Shown here: one piece after another, positions 6,781-32,000 of the stretch
Numbering within the stretch: the first letter of the stretch is position 1
How the letters are laid out: each line of letters begins with the position of its first letter
NCBI RefSeq assembly: GCF_000014265.1
Contig: NC_008312.1
Span: 3,570,001-3,602,000 of the forward strand
Origin: Trichodesmium erythraeum IMS101
Lineage (GTDB): Bacteria > Cyanobacteriota > Cyanobacteriia > Cyanobacteriales > Microcoleaceae
Length of the DNA: 32,000 nucleotides
Direction of reading: 5' to 3'
The notes under the pieces: generated by a model
Told to the model about the DNA's origin: nothing
Database searches by the model: none
The model's input: the letters and a program-made list of their open reading frames with translations, nothing else
Position numbers and translations under genes: made by a program

Positions 6781-7080
6781 AGCTAGGCCAGAACAGTGCC
6801 TAGACCTCATATGAATCTCAGCCATTGCTTGTGCCCTAATTTCAAAAAACTCCCTATTCTTTACCCGTAGTCCTTTCACATCCTCCCCGTCATAAAAGCA
6901 CTGAGACTCCTACCGAGCTGTAGCCCCTCCGCGGGTTAACATATCACAGGCTGCTGTTACCTTTTCAGTAGTCTTTTGCTGACCGACCTGTCCGTTTTTT
7001 TGTCTCGGTATGTCTACCTGGGACTAATATATTTATTGTGAACTAGAAGGCATGATAACATAACCAGTGGAAAAAAATAA
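6781..7080. other. GC-rich non-coding island of unknown nature (candidate structured RNA or mobile-element relic)
   Basis: My count for 6861-6960 is 53 G+C per 100 nt, against a background of roughly one third. There is strong C-over-G skew on the plus strand, a local hairpin CTAGGC-9 nt-GCCTAG (6783-6803), and no ORF of 60 aa or more. Confidence 0.3.
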
Positions 7081-7130
7081 ACTAAAAAGTCACCCGCTTA
7101 TGGGCGAGGCTTTAAACCCAATTTTTCCGT
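7081..7130 (-). repeat. Dispersed roughly 45-nt motif, copy A (CGGAAAAATTGGGTTTAAAGCCTCGCCC-loop-GGGTGAC on the minus strand)
   Basis: It is homologous to 11956-12005 and 12884-12927 on the plus strand. In copy C the core forms a hairpin, TCGCCC-ACCCATC-GGGCGA. Confidence 0.6.
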
Positions 7131-7179
7131 AATATTCAACTGTATATTTAAGTACTTCTATAACCAGCAAGTTACAATA

Positions 7180-11475: not shown

Positions 11476-11955
11476 TCTAATCTAGATAGGTGTTATATCC
11501 CGTCAAAAAACAAAACTCTAGACGGGAGCTGGTTGCCAGTATTAACCTGGCAATTTCTGGCAATAAATCAAAAAAATCTGAGAAAATTTTAATGTAAAAA
11601 AAATTTATAATTGTAGTTAGGAGGTGATTCAATTGTTTGCACTTAAATTTGAGTTAAAACTCAATAAGAAAGAGTGCTCTTTGATGGCCTACTAGGAAGA
11701 TTCTGCCAGATTTGTTTATAACTATGGTTTGAATATGATTAATGTCACTCAAGCCATGACTAAAATCAATAAGTTTAGTAAAGAATTTAGTTTGAGTTAC
11801 AATCAACCCATTTTAGGAGTCAAAACAGTCTTTACTAACTATGTCAAAAAGCAAGCAGAATACTCTTAACGCTGGTAAGACAATAAAGATACCAATATTA
11901 AAGACCTTTCGATTATTTGAATTAGTTGAATATACTACAGCAAGTCAGACTTTTA

Positions 11956-12005
11956 CCGAAAAATTAATATCTAAAACCTCGCCCTTCTAGGTCGACTTTT
12001 TAGTT
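11956..12005 (+). repeat. Dispersed roughly 45-nt motif, copy B
   Basis: CCGAAAAATTAATATCTAAAACCTCGCCCTTCTAGGTCGACTTTTTAG aligns with copies A and C. The downstream GACTTTTTAGTT..TATCAT is also shared with copy A. Confidence 0.55.
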
Positions 12006-12883
12006 GTTTTATCACTAAATAGGTAATCATAAATATTTAGTTGAAAGGTTAAATTATGAAAGGGATATCTGAGTATAGTATTATATCCAACACCAGGGAA
12101 AAAAATACGGAGCGTGCAAAGCTATTTTGCTATCTTTTCTGTGTCAACATTACGCAAATGTGTTTCCTGGAATTAAACCCTAGCTTTCTGTCAATAAAAC
12201 TATAAATTAAGAGAGAAAAAACCTGTTAACTCGCTCGCTACAAAAACAGTTTATTATTCAGAGCTAAAAGGACTAAAGATAGAGAATGATGACCAGAGAT
12301 TTTTATTATACCATTCCAGCAATATTTAAATGATTTAAGTCAAGCTGCTCAAAACTTTTTTAAATCAACCAAAGTTAAGAGGAAAGGAAAAGCTATTAAG
12401 CCTCATAAGTTTTAAACTTGAAAGTCACATACAAACTGCTAGGTTGACAAAAGAGAGGTTTAAAGTTGGTAAGATTTATTTAGCTATAGTTGGAAAACTA
12501 AAAATACTTTGCTTTAGAAAGTTACCGAGTCTTGCATCATCAGTAACTATTATTAAAAACTCTTCTAATAGACATTTTTTAAGTTTTGTAGTATAAATTA
12601 ATCCATAAATCTTAGCTCAAACTAATCATTCAGTAGGCATAGAATTGAGGAATTAAAACTTTTGCTACTTTGAGCGATAGTAATAAAATTGATGCACTAA
12701 AACCAGAAAAAAAACCAGTTAAGAAATAGCCTGCTTCAGAGGAGCTACGAAGGGCGAAAGTTAAGCAAGTTATTATCATAATAAAACTAAAGAGTCTAAA
12801 CGATAAAAAATCCCAGGTTAGAGTCGCTAAACCTTATGGCAAATTTAAAGATACAGGGACAGATTTTCTCTATAAATTATTTA

Positions 12884-12927
12884 CCGAAAAATTGGGGTTA
12901 AAGCCTCGCCCACCCATCGGGCGACAA
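12884..12927 (+). repeat. Dispersed roughly 45-nt motif, copy C
   Basis: The sequence is CCGAAAAATTGGGGTTAAAGCCTCGCCCACCCATCGGGCGACAA, with a perfect 6-bp stem TCGCCC/GGGCGA. Confidence 0.55.
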
Positions 12928-24844: not shown

Positions 24845-25706
24845 TTAGCAAAAAGGATCATTATAGAATTTCCGGTAGTGCGTCAGTAAAGTGTGGGATA
24901 AGTAATTAAGTCGTTCCAACTCCAAGGAGCGATCGCGTTCCTCAGCTCTTTGCGCAGCAGTATTTTCTTTGCGACTATGAACCCAAATCCAATTAAAGTA
25001 GGCCCTCGCCAACCTTATTGTTACATCAGTTTCTTGCCAGAGCTTGCCAAATTTATTCTGTCGGCGATGCCATCGACCGAGCTGCTGTCTGATAATTCCA
25101 TTTGTGCGTTCCAATTGCTGTATATAGTTTTTACCAATAATGTATTCTACTTCTGGAGCGAAAACTCGTTCATACCCTCCGCAATTATCAGTTAGCTATT
25201 TTTTACAGCTAGTTTTCCCTTCTGTGTTGAGGAGCAATTCTTCAATTAACTTATTTACCTACTCTAGTACTCAGAATTAATCCACTGGATGAAGGGTAGG
25301 CACTTGCCAACTCAAGAATTCCCTTCTGTCAATTCCTGATACTGGCACTGTTTTTATTTTTTTGGACCAATGACCAAAACTCATCACTGCTGATCTGTAA
25401 GGTATTGATATTCTGGAGATGAACATTATGAATCATGTGTCCTTTTTCACAGCTAGCTCTCACCAAACTAACTACCGTATTATCGGCCCAATTCAATGTT
25501 CGACTAATCCCTCTTAAACTACTGCCCTCAAAGTGAGCTGGTATTTCCATGGGCACTTGTTCAGGTTGAATTGTTCTACGATAGTAGAGAGTGTCAAAAG
25601 TATCGGTGAAAGTTTGTAGGCATTCAGGACAATAATATCGTTGACAACATTACTGGTCTTTACCATGTTTATGAGTTTTCTGATGGCCACATATAGGACA
25701 TTTCAT
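24845..25706 (-). pseudogene. IS1-family transposase (InsA zinc finger plus InsB-like DDE region), inactivated
   Basis: It reads MKCPICGHQKTHKHGKDQ*CCQRYYCPECLQTF, with an in-frame TAA at 25650-25652. It continues ...LQISSDEFWSLVQKNKN, then needs a +1 shift into KKIKTVPVSGIDRREFLSWQV, and further stops follow. The tail is LTDNCGGYERVF...LERTNGIIRQQLGRWHRRQNKF. Confidence 0.75.
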
Positions 25707-26743: not shown

Positions 26744-26980
26744 ATGGCAGTAAGCAGTAAGTAAAAAAAGTTGGATCATCTCCTTACCTAGCAGAAGTTA
26801 TAGTTCATATTATGACTAATAACTATAGATGTTTGGGTATGCGTGTCTTTAGTAGCTATTGAGTTACTGGCAATTGAAGCAATAATAGTGATAGTTCTAG
26901 TAAAAACTTACTTCCAGTATGCTGTAGTTGTTTTTTAGATACTCTAGCATAACTACCAGATCAGGAGAAACTGCAGCTTA
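26744..26980 (+). pseudogene. gvpA: gvpA pseudogene (array copy 1)
   Basis: ATGGCAGTAAGCAGTAAGTAA stops at codon 7. The rest is alignable at the DNA level to intact gvpA (...AGCAGAAGTTATAG...GATGTTTGGGTATGCGTGTCTTTAGTAGCTATTGAGTTACTGGCAATTGAAGCAATAATAGT...), with indels. Confidence 0.75.
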
Positions 26981-27439
26981 CATTAATCTCAAAGTCAAAT
27001 TTTTGGATATTTCAACATAGTATGAGGCAAAAAAGTAATCCCAGGAGTTAAGTGAAATTTCTGATAGCAAAAAAGCATATTTATTAGACAATTGTAGTCC
27101 ATAAGCTGTAATTACTCAAAAACTATTAACTGTAAGTGTGATTAATGGCAAATTATTTTAAGTCAGCCACTAGCTACCTACTTCTTATTGTTTAACTTTA
27201 ATATTTTTTAGTTAAAGCTGTTGTTATCAATGAACAGAATAATGTTAAGATTATGAATATTTAATTTTATATAAATACAAGAGTTAAAACTCTAAACAAA
27301 TAAATAGAATTATTTCAGCATTATGATACTTATTCAGGGTCTACTTCATTAGTAAACTTAAAACTAATTATAGTTTACTGTAGAAGCTTTTAATAGCTTT
27401 TAAATAGATGGTACTTCTAGCAAATCAGTAACTAAAAAT

Positions 27440-27628
27440 ATGGCATTAGAAAAAATTAATTCATATTCCCGTCTAGTCAAATTTGTAGATCCAATTCTAG
27501 ATAAAGAAGCAGTGATAGATGCTTGGGTACGTGTTTCTGTAGTAGGTATTGAGTTACTGGCAATAGCAATAAGTTCAACACAAATTAAGTTAAAATTGAA
27601 GAATGTTGTTGAGAAAAAATATCAATAA
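27440..27628 (+). pseudogene. gvpA: Diverged, C-terminally frameshifted gvpA (array copy 2). The 62-aa ORF is retained but is probably non-functional.
   Basis: [42 protein letters not shown] aligns to GvpA residues 1-42. A deletion then replaces the conserved [19 protein letters not shown] with unrelated [19 protein letters not shown]. Confidence 0.6.
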
Positions 27629-27676
27629 GTTAAATATTTTTAGCATTATCAGTAATGTTTATCAGGGTTGACTTCC

Positions 27677-27927
27677 TTTTAGACAAAGGTGTAATTGTAG
27701 ATGCTTGGGTACGTCTTTCTTTAGTAGTTATTGAGCTACTAACAATTGAAGCAAAAATAGTTATTGCATCAGTAGAAGCTTACCTAAAGTATTCAGAAGC
27801 ATTTTGTTTTAACTACTAACAATTGAAGCAAAAATAGTTATTGCATCAGTAGAAGCTTACCTAAAGTATTCAGAAGCATTTTGTTTTAACTACTTTAGCA
27901 GCAGCAACAGGAAAAACAGCAGCTTAA
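27677..27927 (+). pseudogene. gvpA: 5'-truncated gvpA with an internal 77-bp tandem duplication (array copy 3)
   Basis: It begins at the LDKGV codons with no start codon. The segment 27736-27812 is repeated at 27813-27889, which shifts the frame. It ends with GCAGCTTAA and the same downstream hairpin as the intact copies. Confidence 0.8.
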
Positions 27928-28280
27928 TTTATCTGTTGAGATAAGTTTTGGCTTTTGAAGAAATAGCACAAGGGTAAAAACAGGAATGAACTAAAATTAC
28001 TGTTGCCCAATAAATTACCCAAAAAAGAAAAACTTTAAAGGTTAATTTGTGCTGTGAGATAATAGTTGCTAAGGGAAGCTATGGAGTTTGAAAACAGTAT
28101 TGGTACTGTTGACAAATAGTACAGCAGGAACATGAAGAAACTGCAGGCAAATGTTGAAGCAGTAGTTGTAACTACGAAACAATTGCTGAGTTAGTGGCTT
28201 TAGTGTTCTTACTGGTAGATTAGTGTTTCTCTTAACATATTGTGCTCTAATTAATATTTCTAAAAAATTCCGAAAGGTAG

Positions 28281-28309
28281 TTGCAAATTAATTGAGATCA
28301 TGTTAATCT
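28281..28309 (+). promoter_or_regulatory. Candidate promoter for gvpA copy 4, overlapping an inverted repeat
   Basis: TTGCAA (28281-28286), a 17-nt spacer, then TAATCT (28304-28309), about 170 nt upstream of the ATG. TGAGAT-7 nt-ATCTCA spans the spacer and the -10 box. Confidence 0.35.
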
Positions 28310-28478
28310 CATATCAGAGTTAAAAAGCTCAACAAATAAAATCACCTCAGCATCATAATATTTACTAAGTTCTAATTAAAAGTAAGCTGTTATTAATTAA
28401 TAGTTTGCCTAATTAACTGTGTAGAATATGAATCCAATGGTGTTCGTAGAAAATAGTAAAAAGTAAGGAATCAAAATC

Positions 28479-28706
28479 ATGGCAGTAGAAAAAGTTAACT
28501 CATCTTCCAGTCTAGCAGAAGTTATAGATCGCATTTTAGACAAAGGTGTAGTTGTAGATGCTTGGATACGTCTTTCTTTAGTAGGTATTGAGCTACTAAC
28601 AATTGAAGCAAGAATAGTTGTTGCATCAGTAGAAACTTACCTAAAGTACGCAGAAGCAGTTGGTTTAACTACTTTAGCAGCAGCACCAGGAGAAGCAGCA
28701 GCTTAA
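28479..28706 (+). CDS. gvpA: Gas vesicle structural protein GvpA (75 aa)
   Basis: [64 protein letters not shown]... is near-identical to remembered cyanobacterial GvpA. An AAGGA RBS lies at 28465-28469. Confidence 0.95.
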
Positions 28707-28730
28707 TTTATCTGTTGAGATAAGTTTTGG
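28705..28730 (+). terminator. Weak AT-rich hairpin overlapping the gvpA stop codon (attenuator or terminator candidate)
   Basis: AATTTATCT (28705-28713), loop GTTG, AGATAAGTT (28718-26), followed by TTGGCTTTTG. The same element follows copy 3, at 27926-27947. Confidence 0.35.
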
Positions 28731-29047
28731 CTTTTGAAGAAATAGCACAAGGGTAAAAACAGGAATGAACTGAAATTACTGTTTCCCAATAAGTTACCAA
28801 AAAAAATTAAAGGTAAATTTGTGCTGTGAGATAATAGTTGTTAAGGAAAGCTATGGAGTTTGAAAACAGTATTAGCACTGTTGACAAATAGCACAGCAAG
28901 AGGATGCAGAAACTACAGGCAAATGTTGAAGTAGTAGTTGTAACTAACAATTGTTGAGTTAGTGACTCAAGTTTTCTTACTGGTAAATTAGTGTTCCTCT
29001 TACATATTGTTCTCTAGTTAATATTTCTAAAAAATCCCCAAAAGTAG

Positions 29048-29076
29048 TTGCAAATCAATTGATATCATGTTACTCT
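29048..29076 (+). promoter_or_regulatory. Candidate promoter for gvpA copy 5
   Basis: TTGCAA (29048-29053), a 17-nt spacer, then TACTCT (29071-29076). The palindrome TGATATCA occurs twice across the spacer and downstream. Its position is equivalent to 28281-28309. Confidence 0.35.
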
Positions 29077-29248
29077 GATATCATAGTTAAAAACTCAACA
29101 AATTAAATCACCTCAGCATCATAATATTTACTAAGTTCTAATTAACAGTAAGTTATTAATTATCAATAAATAGTTTGCTTAATTAACTGTGTAAAACATG
29201 AAGTAAGTGGTGTTTGTAGAAAATAGTAAAAAGTAAGGAATCAAAATC

Positions 29249-29467
29249 ATGGCAGTAGAAAAAGTTAACTCATCTTCCAGTCTAGCAGAAGTTATAGATC
29301 GTATTTTAGACAAAGGTGTGGTTGTAGATGCTTGGGTACGTCTTTCTTTAGTAGGTATTGAGCTACTAACAATTGAAGCAAGAATAGTTATTGCATCAGT
29401 AGAGACTTACCTAAAGTATGCAGAAGCAGTTGGTTTAACTACTTTAGCAGCAGAACCAGCAGCTTAA
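29249..29467 (+). CDS. gvpA: Gas vesicle structural protein GvpA (72 aa)
   Basis: [72 protein letters not shown]. It has the same RBS context as copy 4 and lies exactly 770 bp downstream of it. Confidence 0.95.
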
Positions 29468-29636: not shown

Positions 29637-30357
29637 TTAATTGATATATAATAGAAATTAGGCAACAACTATATATATTTAGTGTATGCCAGGTTGTTAT
29701 CTAAAGCGTTTATAATATATTTATCTCCGTTGCTTAAATTCTAAATTTGAATGCGAATTGGTTAATATATTGGTATAAAGTTTTTATGTCTCTTAAAAGA
29801 ATTTGGTTAATAAGGAAGAAGCGGGCGATTAAGTGAGATAGCTCTTAGAAAGTAAACAGTTAGCCAAACGATAGAAAAATATCAAAATTAACGGAAATGA
29901 ATGTCCGACAGTCTTGAAAAAGGATTGAAAGATTTTGGAAGTAATCTTCATTAAACAGGTCTAGAAGAAAGAAAAAACAGGTCTAGAAGAAAGAAAGAAA
30001 AGGCAAACAGAAATTACTGAACGCCAAGAAGAGGTTGCTCAAAAAAGAAAACCAAGTCAAAGTGATATGATTTTAATAAGTAGTCAAAACACTATGACTT
30101 TGCAAGAGTTTACGAGTAATCTTCGTCAAAGAGGTAAAGAAAAAAACAGCAAAGGCAAATACAAATTGCTGAAGGTAGATAATATGTTTGGGATTATTCA
30201 ACTAAAGATACTAATGGTGAGATAGAAGGACCGATAGCTTAATATAGTATTGACAGTTAACATCAAGATTCTGACTATCACAATTAATGATATTAGGAGT
30301 ATGATCATACGAACATTAGGATAGATAAACTAATAGGGTTAAATTCAGAATTTATTG

Positions 30358-30470: not shown

Positions 30471-30514
30471 GTATCTGCTGCTGTTACTTAATTAATAATA
30501 AGGCACAGGTTTTT

Positions 30515-31087
30515 ATGGCTCTTATAGATATATGGGAAAAAAGCACTGAAATTAGGAAAGATGAGGTGCTACAGATTCACGAGACAGGTAAAGAAGAGAA
30601 GAAGCAAAGGCAAGATGTCATTGTTCAAAGGCAAAATGAGGTGCAAGTTATTCATAATGAAGCTTTAGAAGAGAAGAATCAAAGGCAAGACGTCATTGTT
30701 AAAAGGCAAAATGAGGTGCAAGTTATTCATAATGAAGCTTTAGAAGAGAAGAAGCAAAGGCAAGATGTCATTGTTGAAAGGCAAAATGATACAAAAGCTG
30801 ATCATGAAAAAGCTGTAGCAGATAAGTCCCAAAGGCAAGACGTCATTGTTCAAAGGCAAAATGATACGAAAGCTGATCATGAAAAAGCTGTAGCAGATAA
30901 GTCCCAAAGGCAAGATGTCATTGTTGAAAGGCAAAATGATACGAAAGCTGATCATGAAAAAGCTCTAGCTGACAAGAAGCAAAGGCAAGATGAAAAGGAT
31001 GAACGGAGATCCTACGTTTGGGGTTATAAAGCTGGAATTGAAACAAAACAAACGAGTAGTAATGATTCATATCAGCAAATAGCATAA
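30515..31087 (+). CDS. gvpC: GvpC-like gas vesicle outer-surface protein with 25-residue repeats
   Basis: It lies downstream of the gvpA array. The N-terminus MALIDIWEK and the C-terminal YVWG resemble remembered Microcystis GvpC (MALKDKWQQ..., ...VWG). The protein is highly charged and Gln-rich, with a helical-type composition, and carries five 25-aa tandem repeats. Confidence 0.6.
   Translation: MALIDIWEKSTEIRKDEVLQIHETGKEEKKQRQDVIVQRQNEVQVIHNEALEEKNQRQDVIVKRQNEVQVIHNEALEEKKQRQDVIVERQNDTKADHEKAVADKSQRQDVIVQRQNDTKADHEKAVADKSQRQDVIVERQNDTKADHEKALADKKQRQDEKDERRSYVWGYKAGIETKQTSSNDSYQQIA
30605..30979 (+). repeat. Five exact-period 75-bp coding repeats within the gvpC-like gene
   Basis: CAAAGGCAAGA(T/C)GTCATTGTT recurs at 30605, 30680, 30755, 30830 and 30905, with a partial sixth at 30980. 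There are two subtypes: ...NEVQVIHNEALEEK (repeats 1-2) and ...NDTKADHEKAVADK (repeats 3-5). Confidence 0.95.
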
Positions 31088-31652: not shown

Positions 31653-32000
31653 ATGTATTCCTTTGATAATCTGAACTTAGTAATGTTTAGTGGCAAAGGA
31701 GGCGTGGGAAAAACTACAAATTCTTGTGCTTTTGCTGGCCATTGGGCAAAAAAATCTCCTAATGAAAAGGTCTTGTTAATTTCTACTGATCCTGCACACT
31801 CTTTAGGAGATGTATTGCAAATAAGTGTTACAGATACACCAAGACCTTTAGAAGATTTACCTAATCTTTTAGTCAGAGCTTTAGATGTTAATCTTCTGCT
31901 TGAAGAATTTAAAAAACGTTACGGCGATGTCCTAGAAGTAATTGTAGAGCGAGGTAGTTTTGTTGAGGGGGGAGACCTGACTCCAGTATGGGATTTAGAT
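31653..32000 (+). CDS. ArsA/Get3-family P-loop ATPase. Only the N-terminal 116 aa are present and it continues beyond the window.
   Basis: My translation is MYSFDNLNLVMFSGKGGVGKTTNSCAFAGHWAKKSPNEKVLLISTDPAHSLGDVLQ... It has the deviant Walker A GKGGVGKTT and the STDPAHSL motif typical of ArsA/Get3. The frame is open to position 32000. Confidence 0.75.
   Translation, partial: MYSFDNLNLVMFSGKGGVGKTTNSCAFAGHWAKKSPNEKVLLISTDPAHSLGDVLQISVTDTPRPLEDLPNLLVRALDVNLLLEEFKKRYGDVLEVIVERGSFVEGGDLTPVWDLD

What the first reader, a model, noticed from the sequence alone, without database searches (positions are those of the whole stretch)
30515..31087. The gene in the gvpC position is built from 25-residue repeats rather than the canonical 33-residue repeat
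Seen in the sequence:
- The ORF after the gvpA array has GvpC-like termini (MALIDIWEK..., ...YVWG).
- It has five tandem repeats with an exact 75-bp period, starting at 30605, 30680, 30755, 30830 and 30905, plus a partial sixth.
- The consensus is QRQDVIV.RQN.......E.A..K.
- There are two subtypes (repeats 1-2 and repeats 3-5), nearly identical at the DNA level within each subtype.

Established knowledge: cyanobacterial GvpC proteins (Anabaena flos-aquae, Microcystis, Planktothrix) are built from 33-residue repeats that lie as helices across GvpA ribs. Repeat number correlates with gas-vesicle width and collapse pressure.

Inference: a 25-residue helical repeat is 8 residues shorter per unit, about 12 angstrom at 1.5 angstrom rise per residue. 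It should therefore register on the GvpA lattice with a different stoichiometry. That could relate to unusually narrow or strong vesicles. The near-identity between repeats suggests recent expansion or contraction.
Basis: partly seen in the sequence, partly recalled or inferred. Interest (0 to 1): 0.72.

Follow-up and report, generated by a model that had tools for sequence, protein, structure and literature searches.

The report
Trichodesmium GvpC built from 25-residue repeats
The gene after the gas-vesicle gvpA array of Trichodesmium erythraeum is a very divergent, unannotated relative of the vesicle-strengthening protein GvpC, built from 25-residue modules whose number varies between lineages instead of the 33-residue repeat described for cyanobacteria, so it is a natural test of how GvpC fits onto the vesicle wall.

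Summary
ORF 30515-31087 (190 aa) has five in-frame 75-bp repeats plus a partial sixth. In fact the whole protein is in 25-residue register.

The window is Trichodesmium erythraeum IMS101. Pfam and NCBIfam GvpC models miss the protein, but they also miss the GvpC-position proteins of Okeania and Halothece. Three results support homology:
- The 5' leader and start are conserved with Okeania gvpC at the DNA level.
- The Trichodesmium family matches Okeania GvpC by hhalign (93%, E 3e-7).
- Okeania matches Planktothrix-type GvpC (98.8%, E 9e-17). Shuffled controls give E >= 0.14.

Other cyanobacterial GvpCs repeat at 33/66 residues. This one repeats at 25/50/75. The family is Trichodesmium-only (about 20 proteins among billions; the named ones are "hypothetical"), with 0, 2, 3 or 5 internal modules.

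AlphaFold predicts one helix (residues 2-181). One helical face is conserved every 7 turns. 25 residues are 37.5 A, about three GvpA subunits; 33 residues span four.

Weak points are that the repeats are not amphipathic, sister lineages show 43/18-residue offsets, and there are no expression or binding data. A decayed second gvpC lies at 29786-30200.

Verdict: a new variant of a known kind. The lattice register and the link to vesicle strength are untested.

The parts
30515..31087 (+). gvpC-like CDS (190 aa, 22.4 kDa, pI 5.8), including the stop codon
   Evidence: ORF list. An identical gene call exists on GCA_018457135.1. The ORF is intact in all family members. AlphaFold2 predicts a single helix over residues 2-181, mean pLDDT 86.
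30474..30514 (+). Conserved 5' leader (TTAATTAATA..AAGGCACA..TTTTT) before the ATG
   Evidence: 84% DNA identity with the leader and start of Okeania gvpC (L006 9439-9507 against window 30474-30541). Alignment A3 shows invariant columns across Trichodesmium lineages, L088 and Okeania.
30515..30604 (+). N-cap MALID plus a degenerate N-terminal 25-residue unit (IWEKSTEIRKDEVLQIHETGKEEKK)
   Evidence: M1, L3, W7 and R14 are invariant or nearly invariant positions in 13 Planktothrix-type GvpCs. The offset-25 self-match begins at residue 14. Unit decomposition.
30605..30754 (+). Two type-A 25-residue modules (QRQDVIV[QK]RQNEVQVIHNEALEEK[NK])
   Evidence: 72/75 nt identical.
30755..30979 (+). Three type-B 25-residue modules (QRQDVIV[EQ]RQNDTKADHEKA[VL]ADK[SK])
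   Evidence: 67-72/75 nt identical to each other and 56-59/75 to type A.
30980..31024 (+). C-unit QRQDEKDERRSYVWG, carrying the GvpC C-terminal VWG motif
   Evidence: Y-V-W-G is invariant in the Trichodesmium family. V215 and W216 are invariant and G217 nearly invariant in Planktothrix-type GvpCs. The last 135 nt are 134-135/135 identical between alleles whose flanks are 94-98% identical.
31025..31084 (+). Polar C-terminal tail, low predicted confidence
   Evidence: pLDDT falls to 58 and 47 in the last two ten-residue blocks; residues 182-190 are not helical and 184-190 score below 50.
29786..30200 (+). Decayed second gvpC paralogue (pseudogene). It starts MSLKRIW and ends ..YVWDY, with frameshifts and at least 10 stops.
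   Evidence: tblastn of P0092 (Trichodesmium MAG_R03) gives 53% identity, E 5e-10 at 29817-29981, and a second piece at 29986-30141. Okeania GvpC also hits 29989-30135.
29249..29467 (+). Intact gvpA (72 aa, ABG51547)
   Evidence: Pfam Gas_vesicle 1e-16. Exact match to the IMS101 GvpA record.
28479..28706 (+). Intact gvpA (75 aa, ABG51546)
31653..32000 (+). 5' part of the two-domain ArsA/GET3-type ATPase gene (Tery_2327, ABG51549). It is the next gene of the cluster and runs off the window.
   Evidence: Translation. L001 gene table and NCBIfam TIGR00345 2e-106. Exact look-up.

Best explanation
ORF 30515-31087 is the Trichodesmium erythraeum orthologue of GvpC, the outer gas-vesicle protein.

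Shown:
- It is the only intact GvpC-like gene found in the window and the 10 kb downstream. It lies between the gvpA array and arsA-gvpN-gvpJ-gvpK.
- It shares its leader, its N-terminal MAL-D-W..R motif and its C-terminal YVWG motif with Okeania and Planktothrix-type GvpC.
- It is made of 25-residue modules.
- The module number differs between Trichodesmium lineages.

Inferred:
- It forms one long alpha-helix of about 27 nm that lies along a GvpA rib on helix alpha2, as Anabaena GvpC does, and stiffens the wall.
- Each 25-residue module (37.5 A, 7 helical turns) presents the same conserved face (R2, R9, V13, H17, A20, K24, plus I6 and L21) to three consecutive GvpA subunits. A 33-residue repeat covers four.
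- The family probably arose from an Okeania-like GvpC with a roughly 33-residue period. Internal deletion gave a 66-68-aa core, which re-expanded by in-frame 75-bp duplications.
- Module number sets how many GvpA one molecule ties together: about 21-22 in IMS101, fewer in the short alleles.
For: Identity of the window:
- It is T. erythraeum IMS101; ligA, truB and both gvpA copies are exact matches.

Synteny:
- The order is gvpA array, this ORF, arsA-like gene, 138-aa gene, gvpN, gvpJ, gvpK.
- A lineage about 80% identical at the DNA level has the same order (L092).
- The 66-aa relative P0044 sits directly after gvpA.

Homology:
- hhalign of the Trichodesmium family against Okeania GvpC gives 93%, E 3.1e-7 over 76 columns.
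- Okeania against 13 Planktothrix-type GvpCs gives 98.8%, E 9.4e-17, end to end.
- The direct comparison gives E 1.1e-4.
- Reversed and 30 column-shuffled controls give E >= 0.14 for the Trichodesmium-family comparisons.
- BLASTP of P0043 against Okeania gives 9e-9, and P0004 against L036 gives 8e-7.
- Planktothrix GvpC itself is recognised by NCBIfam TIGR02641 (6.6e-13).
- The leader and start are conserved in DNA with Okeania.

Period:
- 25/50/75 here. It is 33/66 in Tolypothrix, Microcystis, Halothece and Planktothrix, and 33/65 in Okeania.

Structure and binding face:
- A single helix over residues 2-181, with pLDDT above 90 over the repeats.
- The conservation profile of 19 distinct 25-mers peaks at harmonic 7 (3.57 residues per turn, P 0.03). 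For 39 canonical 33-mers it peaks at harmonic 9 (P < 0.001).
- GvpA residues 49-64, including E52 and E59, are invariant across these genera.

Geometry from the literature:
- One 33-residue repeat spans four GvpA, and the GvpA spacing is 12.1-12.7 A (PMC9994262, PMC10185304).
- 25 x 1.5 A = 37.5 A, against 36.3-38.1 A for three GvpA.

Biology:
- IMS101 makes gas vesicles in culture (PMC13538572).
Against: - There is no expression, proteomic or binding evidence.
- Pfam PF01304 and NCBIfam TIGR02641 do not match. The conserved L/F/R pattern of the 33-mer is absent.
- The helical hydrophobic moment of the repeat region is below that of shuffles (0.110 against 0.195). Tolypothrix and Halothece GvpC exceed their shuffle 95th percentile at 98.4 degrees; Planktothrix peaks at the same angle but below it.
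- The 8.33-residue harmonic of hydrophobic positions (P 0.024) has no counterpart in canonical 33-mers, so that control fails.
- Sister Trichodesmium lineages show 43- and 18-residue offsets, which equal 5.2 and 2.2 GvpA at 12.4 A.
- High-confidence single helices from AlphaFold2 are common for charged repeats, and the alignment had only 5 sequences.
- The cluster shows decay: a gvpC pseudogene and degenerate gvpA copies.
Confidence: 0.6

Rival explanations
1. It is a relic of GvpC under relaxed constraint. The gene is dispensable or barely functional in Trichodesmium. The 75-bp units are a neutral minisatellite that stays open only because 75 is a multiple of 3, so the 25-residue period has no structural meaning.
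For: - A neighbouring gvpC paralogue is already a pseudogene, and several gvpA copies are degenerate.
- Relatives of only 66-68 aa exist with no internal module.
- Module number and type vary between contigs whose flanks are 94-98% identical.
- The repeats are not amphipathic.
- Other lineages use 43/18-residue offsets.
Against: - The ORF is intact in every one of about 20 family members, across lineages down to about 80% DNA identity.
- The leader, the N-cap and the C-unit are conserved. The last 135 nt are 134-135/135 identical, while the flanks differ by 2-6%.
- Conservation among diverged modules falls on one helical face (P 0.03).
- A 25-residue duplication of the same module, in the same register, recurs in a lineage about 80% identical in DNA (P0090 against P0091).
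Confidence: 0.22
2. It is a GvpC-derived protein with a changed role, for example a charged single-alpha-helix spacer or ruler, a vesicle-clustering or positioning factor, or an assembly chaperone. In this reading it is not a wall-stiffening tie.
For: - 41% of residues are charged, and there is no hydrophobic moment.
- One long helix is predicted.
- The gene is next to an ArsA/GET3-type ATPase.
- IMS101 relocates its vesicles to the cell periphery under some conditions (PMC13538572).
- A relative in MAG_R04 lies next to HSP20 genes and not next to gvpA.
Against: - The GvpC termini are retained, and GvpA helix alpha2 is unchanged.
- The conserved face holds Arg, His and Lys plus small hydrophobic residues, which suits the acidic E52/E59 surface that GvpC contacts in Anabaena.
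- No other candidate for the GvpC role is present in the cluster.
Confidence: 0.12
3. It is not a gene. A non-coding 75-bp minisatellite happens to be open in one frame.
For: - The exact 190-aa sequence is not in the 15-billion-protein collection.
- Repeat-generated ORFs also appear on the opposite strand.
- No promoter or terminator enrichment was found.
Against: - Protein-level homology to GvpC of other genera with clean controls.
- A start codon and leader conserved across genera.
- All length differences are multiples of 75 bp.
- Relatives without any repeat still encode the same N- and C-terminal parts.
- A gene is called at this position in another assembly.
Confidence: 0.03

Closest known systems
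GvpC of Anabaena/Dolichospermum flos-aquae and other Nostocales (Pfam PF01304, NCBIfam TIGR02641)
   Same: - The gene lies next to gvpA in the gvp cluster.
- The protein is all-alpha-helical and made of tandem repeats.
- One conserved helical face recurs once per repeat.
- Total length is similar (190 aa here; 193 aa for Anabaena, from memory).
- The GvpA alpha2 docking surface is identical.
   Different: - The period is 25, not 33.
- There is no L4/F11/L12/R19/Q26/L30/F33 pattern and no HMM match.
- There is no significant amphipathic moment.
- One repeat is 7 turns and about 3 GvpA, instead of 9 turns and 4 GvpA (inference).
Planktothrix GvpC length variants (GvpC16/20/24/26/28/40; PMC5259702)
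   Same: - Same N-terminal MAL-D-W..R motif and C-terminal VWG motif.
- Length polymorphism occurs between close relatives. In Planktothrix it has been related to vesicle strength (longer gvpC variant in strains with weak vesicles; references cited in PMC5259702).
   Different: - Planktothrix keeps four degenerate 33-residue repeats (offsets 33/66) and is recognised by TIGR02641.
- The Trichodesmium variants differ by whole 25-residue modules.
GvpC-position protein of Okeania spp. and 'Trichodesmium sp.' sediment MAG (L006, L007, L036; annotated hypothetical)
   Same: - It is the closest outgroup.
- The leader and start are conserved at the DNA level.
- It shares MALKDIW, TEIAER..EVAQ, (Q/H)(E/Q)TG.A(E/D)KQQRQ.ENAER and YVWG.
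   Different: - It is 159-166 aa with 33/65-residue offsets and hydrophobic ML.EFV..L motifs.
- It lies between two gvpA genes.
- It has no 25-residue tandem array.
Haloarchaeal GvpC (32-38-residue repeats; PMC10903477)
   Same: It shows that the GvpC repeat length is not universally 33.
   Different: It is archaeal, much larger, has a globular C-terminal domain, and shows no detectable sequence relation here.

Membership tests
Cyanobacterial 33-residue-repeat GvpC (Pfam PF01304 Gas_vesicle_C; NCBIfam TIGR02641 gvpC_cyan_rpt) | Match to the 33-residue repeat HMM | tested here: not met
   No hit even at E <= 10 in Pfam or NCBIfam. Controls: TIGR02641 hits Tolypothrix (1.7e-55) and Planktothrix (6.6e-13) but misses Okeania, Halothece and all Trichodesmium relatives. 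PF01304 hits Microcystis only.
Cyanobacterial 33-residue-repeat GvpC (Pfam PF01304 Gas_vesicle_C; NCBIfam TIGR02641 gvpC_cyan_rpt) | Tandem repeats with a 33-residue period and conserved Leu/Phe/Arg positions | tested here: not met
   The period is 25/50/75. The most conserved positions of the 25-mer are H17, K24, A20, R9, A/E22, D23 and R2; there is no Phe. The canonical 33-mers extracted here have invariant F11, L12, R19, A23, Q26, L30 and F33.
GvpC orthologous group, 'MAL-D-W ... VWG' type (Planktothrix, Okeania, Roseofilum, Halothece and others) | Gene adjacent to gvpA inside a gvp cluster, upstream of gvpN | tested here: met
   The order is gvpA copies, a gvpC pseudogene, this ORF, arsA-like gene, 138-aa gene, gvpN, gvpJ, gvpK.
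GvpC orthologous group, 'MAL-D-W ... VWG' type (Planktothrix, Okeania, Roseofilum, Halothece and others) | N-terminal M-A-L-x-D-x-W...R14 motif and C-terminal V-W-G motif | tested here: met
   In alignment A4 (13 GvpCs), M1, W7, R14, R21, L54, V215 and W216 are invariant, and L3, V25 and G217 are nearly invariant. This ORF has M1, L3, W7, R14 and V168-W169-G170. R21 is absent in IMS101 but present in alleles P0002 and P0004.
GvpC orthologous group, 'MAL-D-W ... VWG' type (Planktothrix, Okeania, Roseofilum, Halothece and others) | Statistically supported sequence homology | tested here: met
   Transitive chain: family against Okeania, 93.1%, E 3.1e-7; Okeania against Planktothrix-type, 98.8%, E 9.4e-17. 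The direct comparison gives only 56%, E 1.1e-4 over 45 N-terminal columns. Controls give E >= 0.14.
GvpC orthologous group, 'MAL-D-W ... VWG' type (Planktothrix, Okeania, Roseofilum, Halothece and others) | Long alpha-helix with one conserved (binding) face | tested here: inconclusive
   AlphaFold2 predicts a helix over residues 2-181, pLDDT 86. The conservation moment peaks at 100 degrees, P 0.027-0.029. However, the hydrophobic moment is not above shuffles, and the modules compared are not independent.
GvpC orthologous group, 'MAL-D-W ... VWG' type (Planktothrix, Okeania, Roseofilum, Halothece and others) | Protein on the outer surface of gas vesicles that raises the critical collapse pressure | not testable with these tools
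   This needs proteomics of purified vesicles and strip/re-addition assays.

The most novel reading that the evidence does not exclude
GvpC repeat lengths are quantised by the GvpA lattice. Under this reading 25 residues (7 turns, 37.5 A) is the three-subunit solution and 33 residues (9 turns, 49.5 A) is the four-subunit solution. Trichodesmium rebuilt its GvpC from the three-subunit module after losing the ancestral repeats. Natural variation in module number (0, 2, 3, 5) would then tune vesicle stiffness or width between Trichodesmium lineages living at different depths.
Probability: 0.25. Interest if true: 0.8.

Novelty: new variant of a known kind. Interest (0 to 1): 0.6.

Why it matters
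Trichodesmium is a globally important marine nitrogen fixer. Its buoyancy depends on gas vesicles reported as the narrowest known (PMC4187190), yet its GvpC has gone unrecognised. Annotation pipelines call the named relatives 'hypothetical protein'.

The current structural model, in which one 33-residue repeat binds four GvpA, rests on Anabaena alone. A recent review describes cyanobacterial GvpC repeats as uniformly 33 residues (PMC10903477). A natural GvpC with a 25-residue module on an identical GvpA alpha2 surface gives a direct test. That test can show whether repeat length is set by the lattice and which residues really make the contact.

The result also bears on engineering. GvpC is the handle used to tune the collapse and buckling pressure of acoustic reporter vesicles. 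A shorter module available in graded copy numbers would be a new design element.

Tried and rejected
- **Pfam and NCBIfam scans of the ORF and relatives.** No GvpC hit. Controls showed these models miss the GvpC-position proteins of Okeania and Halothece (and Pfam also misses Planktothrix GvpC), so the negative result is uninformative.
- **Scans of genome contigs and metagenome contigs with the family, and an exact 35-nt C-terminal DNA pattern.** Nothing found. The source genome itself was not returned, so this stretch may be masked in the collection.
- **PDB sequence search.** Nothing below E 0.2. I did not run a fold search, because a single helix gives meaningless matches.
- **Rfam over the window.** No hit.
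- **Promoter and terminator scan.** No enrichment.
- **A beta-hairpin reading of DVIVQRQNEVQVIH.** Rejected, because AlphaFold2 gives a continuous helix.
- **A frameshift explanation for the DVIV versus ADN[ED] alleles.** Rejected. The DNA alignment shows second-codon-position T/A substitutions in the same frame.
- **Classical amphipathic helix.** Not supported by the Eisenberg moment.
- **An 8.33-residue sub-period as evidence for one contact per GvpA.** P 0.024 in the 25-mer, but the matching harmonic is absent in the 33-mers. I do not rely on it.
- **Literature searches** for Trichodesmium gvpC, Tery_2324-2327 and the assembly accession. Nothing relevant. Walsby 1994 and Held 2022 are not held.
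- **Species assignment of the short alleles and any link to measured collapse pressures.** Could not be established.
Full report
**1. The observation**

The + strand carries an ORF at 30515-31087 encoding 190 aa. It begins MALIDIWEK and has YVWG at residues 167-170. Tandem Repeats Finder reports one array at 30592-30992 with a 75-bp period, 5.3 copies, 89% matches and no indels, score 501.

There are two subtypes:
- Units 1-2 share 72/75 nt.
- Units 3-5 share 67-72/75 nt.
- The two subtypes share 56-59/75 nt; by eye, the differences lie almost entirely in the second half of the unit.

The sixth unit, at 30980, keeps only QRQD and then runs into ...ERRSYVWG. Protein autocorrelation peaks at shifts 25 and 50, far above shuffles.

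Two small corrections apply. Residues 6-30 are a degenerate seventh copy, so the whole protein is MALID + N-unit + 5 units + C-unit + tail.

**2. Where the window comes from**

The DNA ligase, TruB and both intact GvpA proteins are exact matches to Trichodesmium erythraeum IMS101 (ligA = Tery_2316; GvpA ABG51546 and ABG51547). The same 190-aa gene, with 100% identical flanks, is called on a T. erythraeum MAG, GCA_018457135.1.

Downstream lie, in order:
- a two-domain ArsA/GET3-type ATPase (Tery_2327);
- a 138-aa hypothetical protein (Tery_2328);
- gvpN, gvpJ and a gvpK-like gene;
- a second gvpN-gvpJ pair.

Upstream is a gvpA array of roughly 770-bp units, with two intact and several degenerate copies. 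The ORF is therefore in the gvpC position.

The exact sequence is absent from the 15-billion-protein collection. The accession gap between ABG51547 and ABG51549 suggests that a record exists, but I could not verify what it covers. The relatives that carry a name are called 'hypothetical protein'.

**3. Is it GvpC?**

The curated models say no. Neither Pfam PF01304 nor NCBIfam TIGR02641 matches, even at E 10. The controls show that these 33-residue-repeat models are narrow:
- PF01304 hits only Microcystis among the eight GvpC-position proteins tested and misses Planktothrix GvpC.
- TIGR02641 hits Tolypothrix and Planktothrix but misses Okeania and Halothece.

I therefore collected 80 gvpA loci from GTDB genomes and read the gene that follows gvpA. 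Many of these genes start MAL[KR]D.W and end ..YVWG. In an alignment of 13 such proteins, M1, W7, R14, R21, V215 and W216 are invariant, and L3 and G217 nearly so. The Trichodesmium ORF has M1, L3, W7, R14 and VWG.

The nearest outgroup, Okeania, shares the 5' leader and first codons at 84% DNA identity.

Exhaustive HMMER over 1.84 billion representatives found only four proteins. A second word-indexed search found 18. Those that carry a name are from Trichodesmium MAGs; the rest are unnamed metagenome proteins, mostly from ENA. Some of them bridge to Okeania:
- P0043 against Okeania GvpC, BLASTP 9e-9.
- P0044 against Okeania GvpC, 3e-7.
- P0004 against L036, 8e-7.

Profile-profile comparison gives:
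- Trichodesmium family against Okeania: 93%, E 3.1e-7.
- Okeania against Planktothrix-type GvpC: 98.8%, E 9.4e-17, end to end.
- Trichodesmium family against Planktothrix-type directly: 56%, E 1.1e-4.

For the two comparisons that involve the Trichodesmium family, reversed and 30 column-shuffled targets never do better than E 0.14. The similarity is therefore not compositional. I conclude that the ORF is a divergent GvpC orthologue, but not a member of the 33-residue-repeat family as the HMMs define it.

**4. The period is really different**

Significant internal offsets:

| Group | Offsets (residues) |
|---|---|
| Tolypothrix, Microcystis, Halothece, Planktothrix | 33 and 66 |
| Okeania | 33 and 65 |
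| T. erythraeum clade (IMS101, P0001-P0004) and P0090 | 25, 50, 75 |
| Trichodesmium MAG_R03/R04-type proteins | 43, 18, 61 |

P0090 comes from a lineage about 80% identical in DNA with the same gene order (L092).

The module count differs between contigs:
- 5 in IMS101 and the GBR MAG.
- 3 in P0002.
- 2 in P0001, P0003 and P0004. A partial protein of T. erythraeum 21-75 clusters with P0001.
- 0 in P0042 and P0044.

P0090 and P0091 differ by one 25-residue module in the same register. Alleles also differ by DVIV versus ADN[ED] in the module, through second-codon-position T/A changes. The last 135 nt are essentially invariant.

The simplest history has three steps: an Okeania-like GvpC with a roughly 33-residue period; internal deletions to a core of about 66 aa; then re-expansion by 75-bp duplications. 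This history is inferred, not shown.

**5. Likely mechanism**

AlphaFold2, run on a 5-sequence alignment, predicts one continuous helix over residues 2-181. Mean pLDDT is 86 and exceeds 90 over the repeats. That helix would be about 27 nm long.

Cryo-EM and cryo-ET of Anabaena vesicles show the following (PMC9994262, PMC10185304):
- GvpC runs along the ribs on GvpA helix alpha2.
- One 33-residue repeat (49.5 A) spans four GvpA.
- GvpA spacing is 12.1 A at the hairpins and about 12.7 A at the GvpC radius.

A 25-residue module is 37.5 A, against 36.3-38.1 A for three GvpA. The 8-residue difference from 33 equals one GvpA width. In helical phase, 25 residues are 6.94 turns (-20 degrees per repeat), while 33 residues give +60 degrees.

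The conservation profile of 19 distinct 25-mers has its strongest harmonic at 7 per repeat (P 0.03). The conserved face holds R2, R9, V13, H17, A20 and K24, plus I6 and L21. For 39 canonical 33-mers the strongest harmonic is 9 per repeat (P < 0.001).

GvpA residues 49-64, including E52 and E59, which contact GvpC in the Anabaena model, are identical in Trichodesmium, Dolichospermum, Planktothrix, Okeania and Microcystis.

My best reading is a helical tie along the rib, with a basic and small-hydrophobic face recurring every three GvpA. IMS101 does make vesicles in culture (PMC13538572).

**6. What weakens this reading**

- The repeat region has no helical hydrophobic moment: 0.110, against 0.195 for shuffles. 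Tolypothrix and Halothece GvpC exceed their shuffle 95th percentile at 98.4 degrees.
- The 8.33-residue harmonic of hydrophobic positions (P 0.024) has no counterpart in the 33-mers, so I do not count it.
- The 43- and 18-residue offsets in sister lineages fit integer helical turns, but they fit the GvpA lattice less well.
- In narrow vesicles the spacing at the GvpC radius should be larger. By my estimate this gives a similar relative mismatch of about 6-7% for both 25 and 33 residues.
- The cluster shows decay. A second gvpC paralogue at 29786-30200 has frameshifts and at least 10 stops.
- There are no expression or binding data.

The main rival is therefore a relaxed, partly neutral repeat array in a dispensable GvpC remnant. 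I give it about 0.2.

**7. Novelty and verdict**

None of the searched papers describes a Trichodesmium GvpC or a 25-residue GvpC repeat. A 2024 review states that cyanobacterial GvpC has uniform 33-residue repeats.

This is a new variant of a known kind. Its main value is as a natural test of the 'one repeat = four GvpA' model, and as a candidate determinant of vesicle mechanics in an ecologically important genus. Which species carry the short alleles is also unresolved.

Noticed in passing
window 29786-30200 (+): Decayed second gvpC paralogue between the last gvpA and the intact ORF. It starts ATG..MSLKRIW and ends ..QQRQIQIAEGR*YVWDY, with frameshifts and at least 10 stops. Its best match is P0092 of Trichodesmium MAG_R03 (53% identity, E 5e-10). 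The 52-aa ORF at 30067-30225 is a fragment of it, and a 22-bp tandem repeat (29953-30003) sits at a frame change.
   Followed up: yes
window 26760-29467: The gvpA array consists of roughly 770-bp tandem units. Only two copies are intact (28479-28706, 29249-29467). The copies at 27440-27628 and 27655-27819 are degenerate, with a perfect 77-bp tandem duplication at 27736-27894. A further remnant lies near 26760-26949.
   Followed up: partly
window 31653-32000 (runs off the end); L001 2224-4104: A two-domain ArsA/GET3-type ATPase (Tery_2327) lies inside the gvp cluster, between the gvpC-like gene and gvpN. A two-P-loop ArsA-like ORF lies within 10 kb of gvpA in 19 of the roughly 90 loci examined, including Nostocales. 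A role in handling hydrophobic Gvp proteins is conceivable but untested.
   Followed up: partly
window 30515-30604 compared with L002 1150-1239 and L084: The N-terminal unit is hypervariable between alleles: 69/90 nt identical where the flanks are 94-98% identical. The last 135 nt of the gene are 134-135/135 identical. The DVIV and ADN[ED] module alleles differ only by second-codon-position T/A changes.
   Followed up: partly
window 24873-24991, 7016-7132, 11952-12005, 12880-12911: Short dispersed repeats are shared with contigs of other Trichodesmium-lineage organisms (L088-L090), at 77-94% identity.
   Followed up: no
L001 4773-6016 and 8792-10038: The gvpN-gvpJ pair is duplicated in the T. 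erythraeum cluster. Each copy is followed by a small 60-74-aa ORF.
   Followed up: no
L093 4161-4628 (Trichodesmium sp. MAG_R04): A 155-aa GvpC-like family member (P0096, 43-residue internal offset) lies next to two HSP20 genes, with no gvpA within 4 kb.
   Followed up: no
L006 10493-12523, L007 4391-6241, L036 3903-5741: In Okeania-type clusters a 612-676-aa protein follows the second gvpA. In L007 it shows strong internal repeats of about 27 residues (self-identity 0.49). The L006 copy has no NCBIfam match.
   Followed up: no
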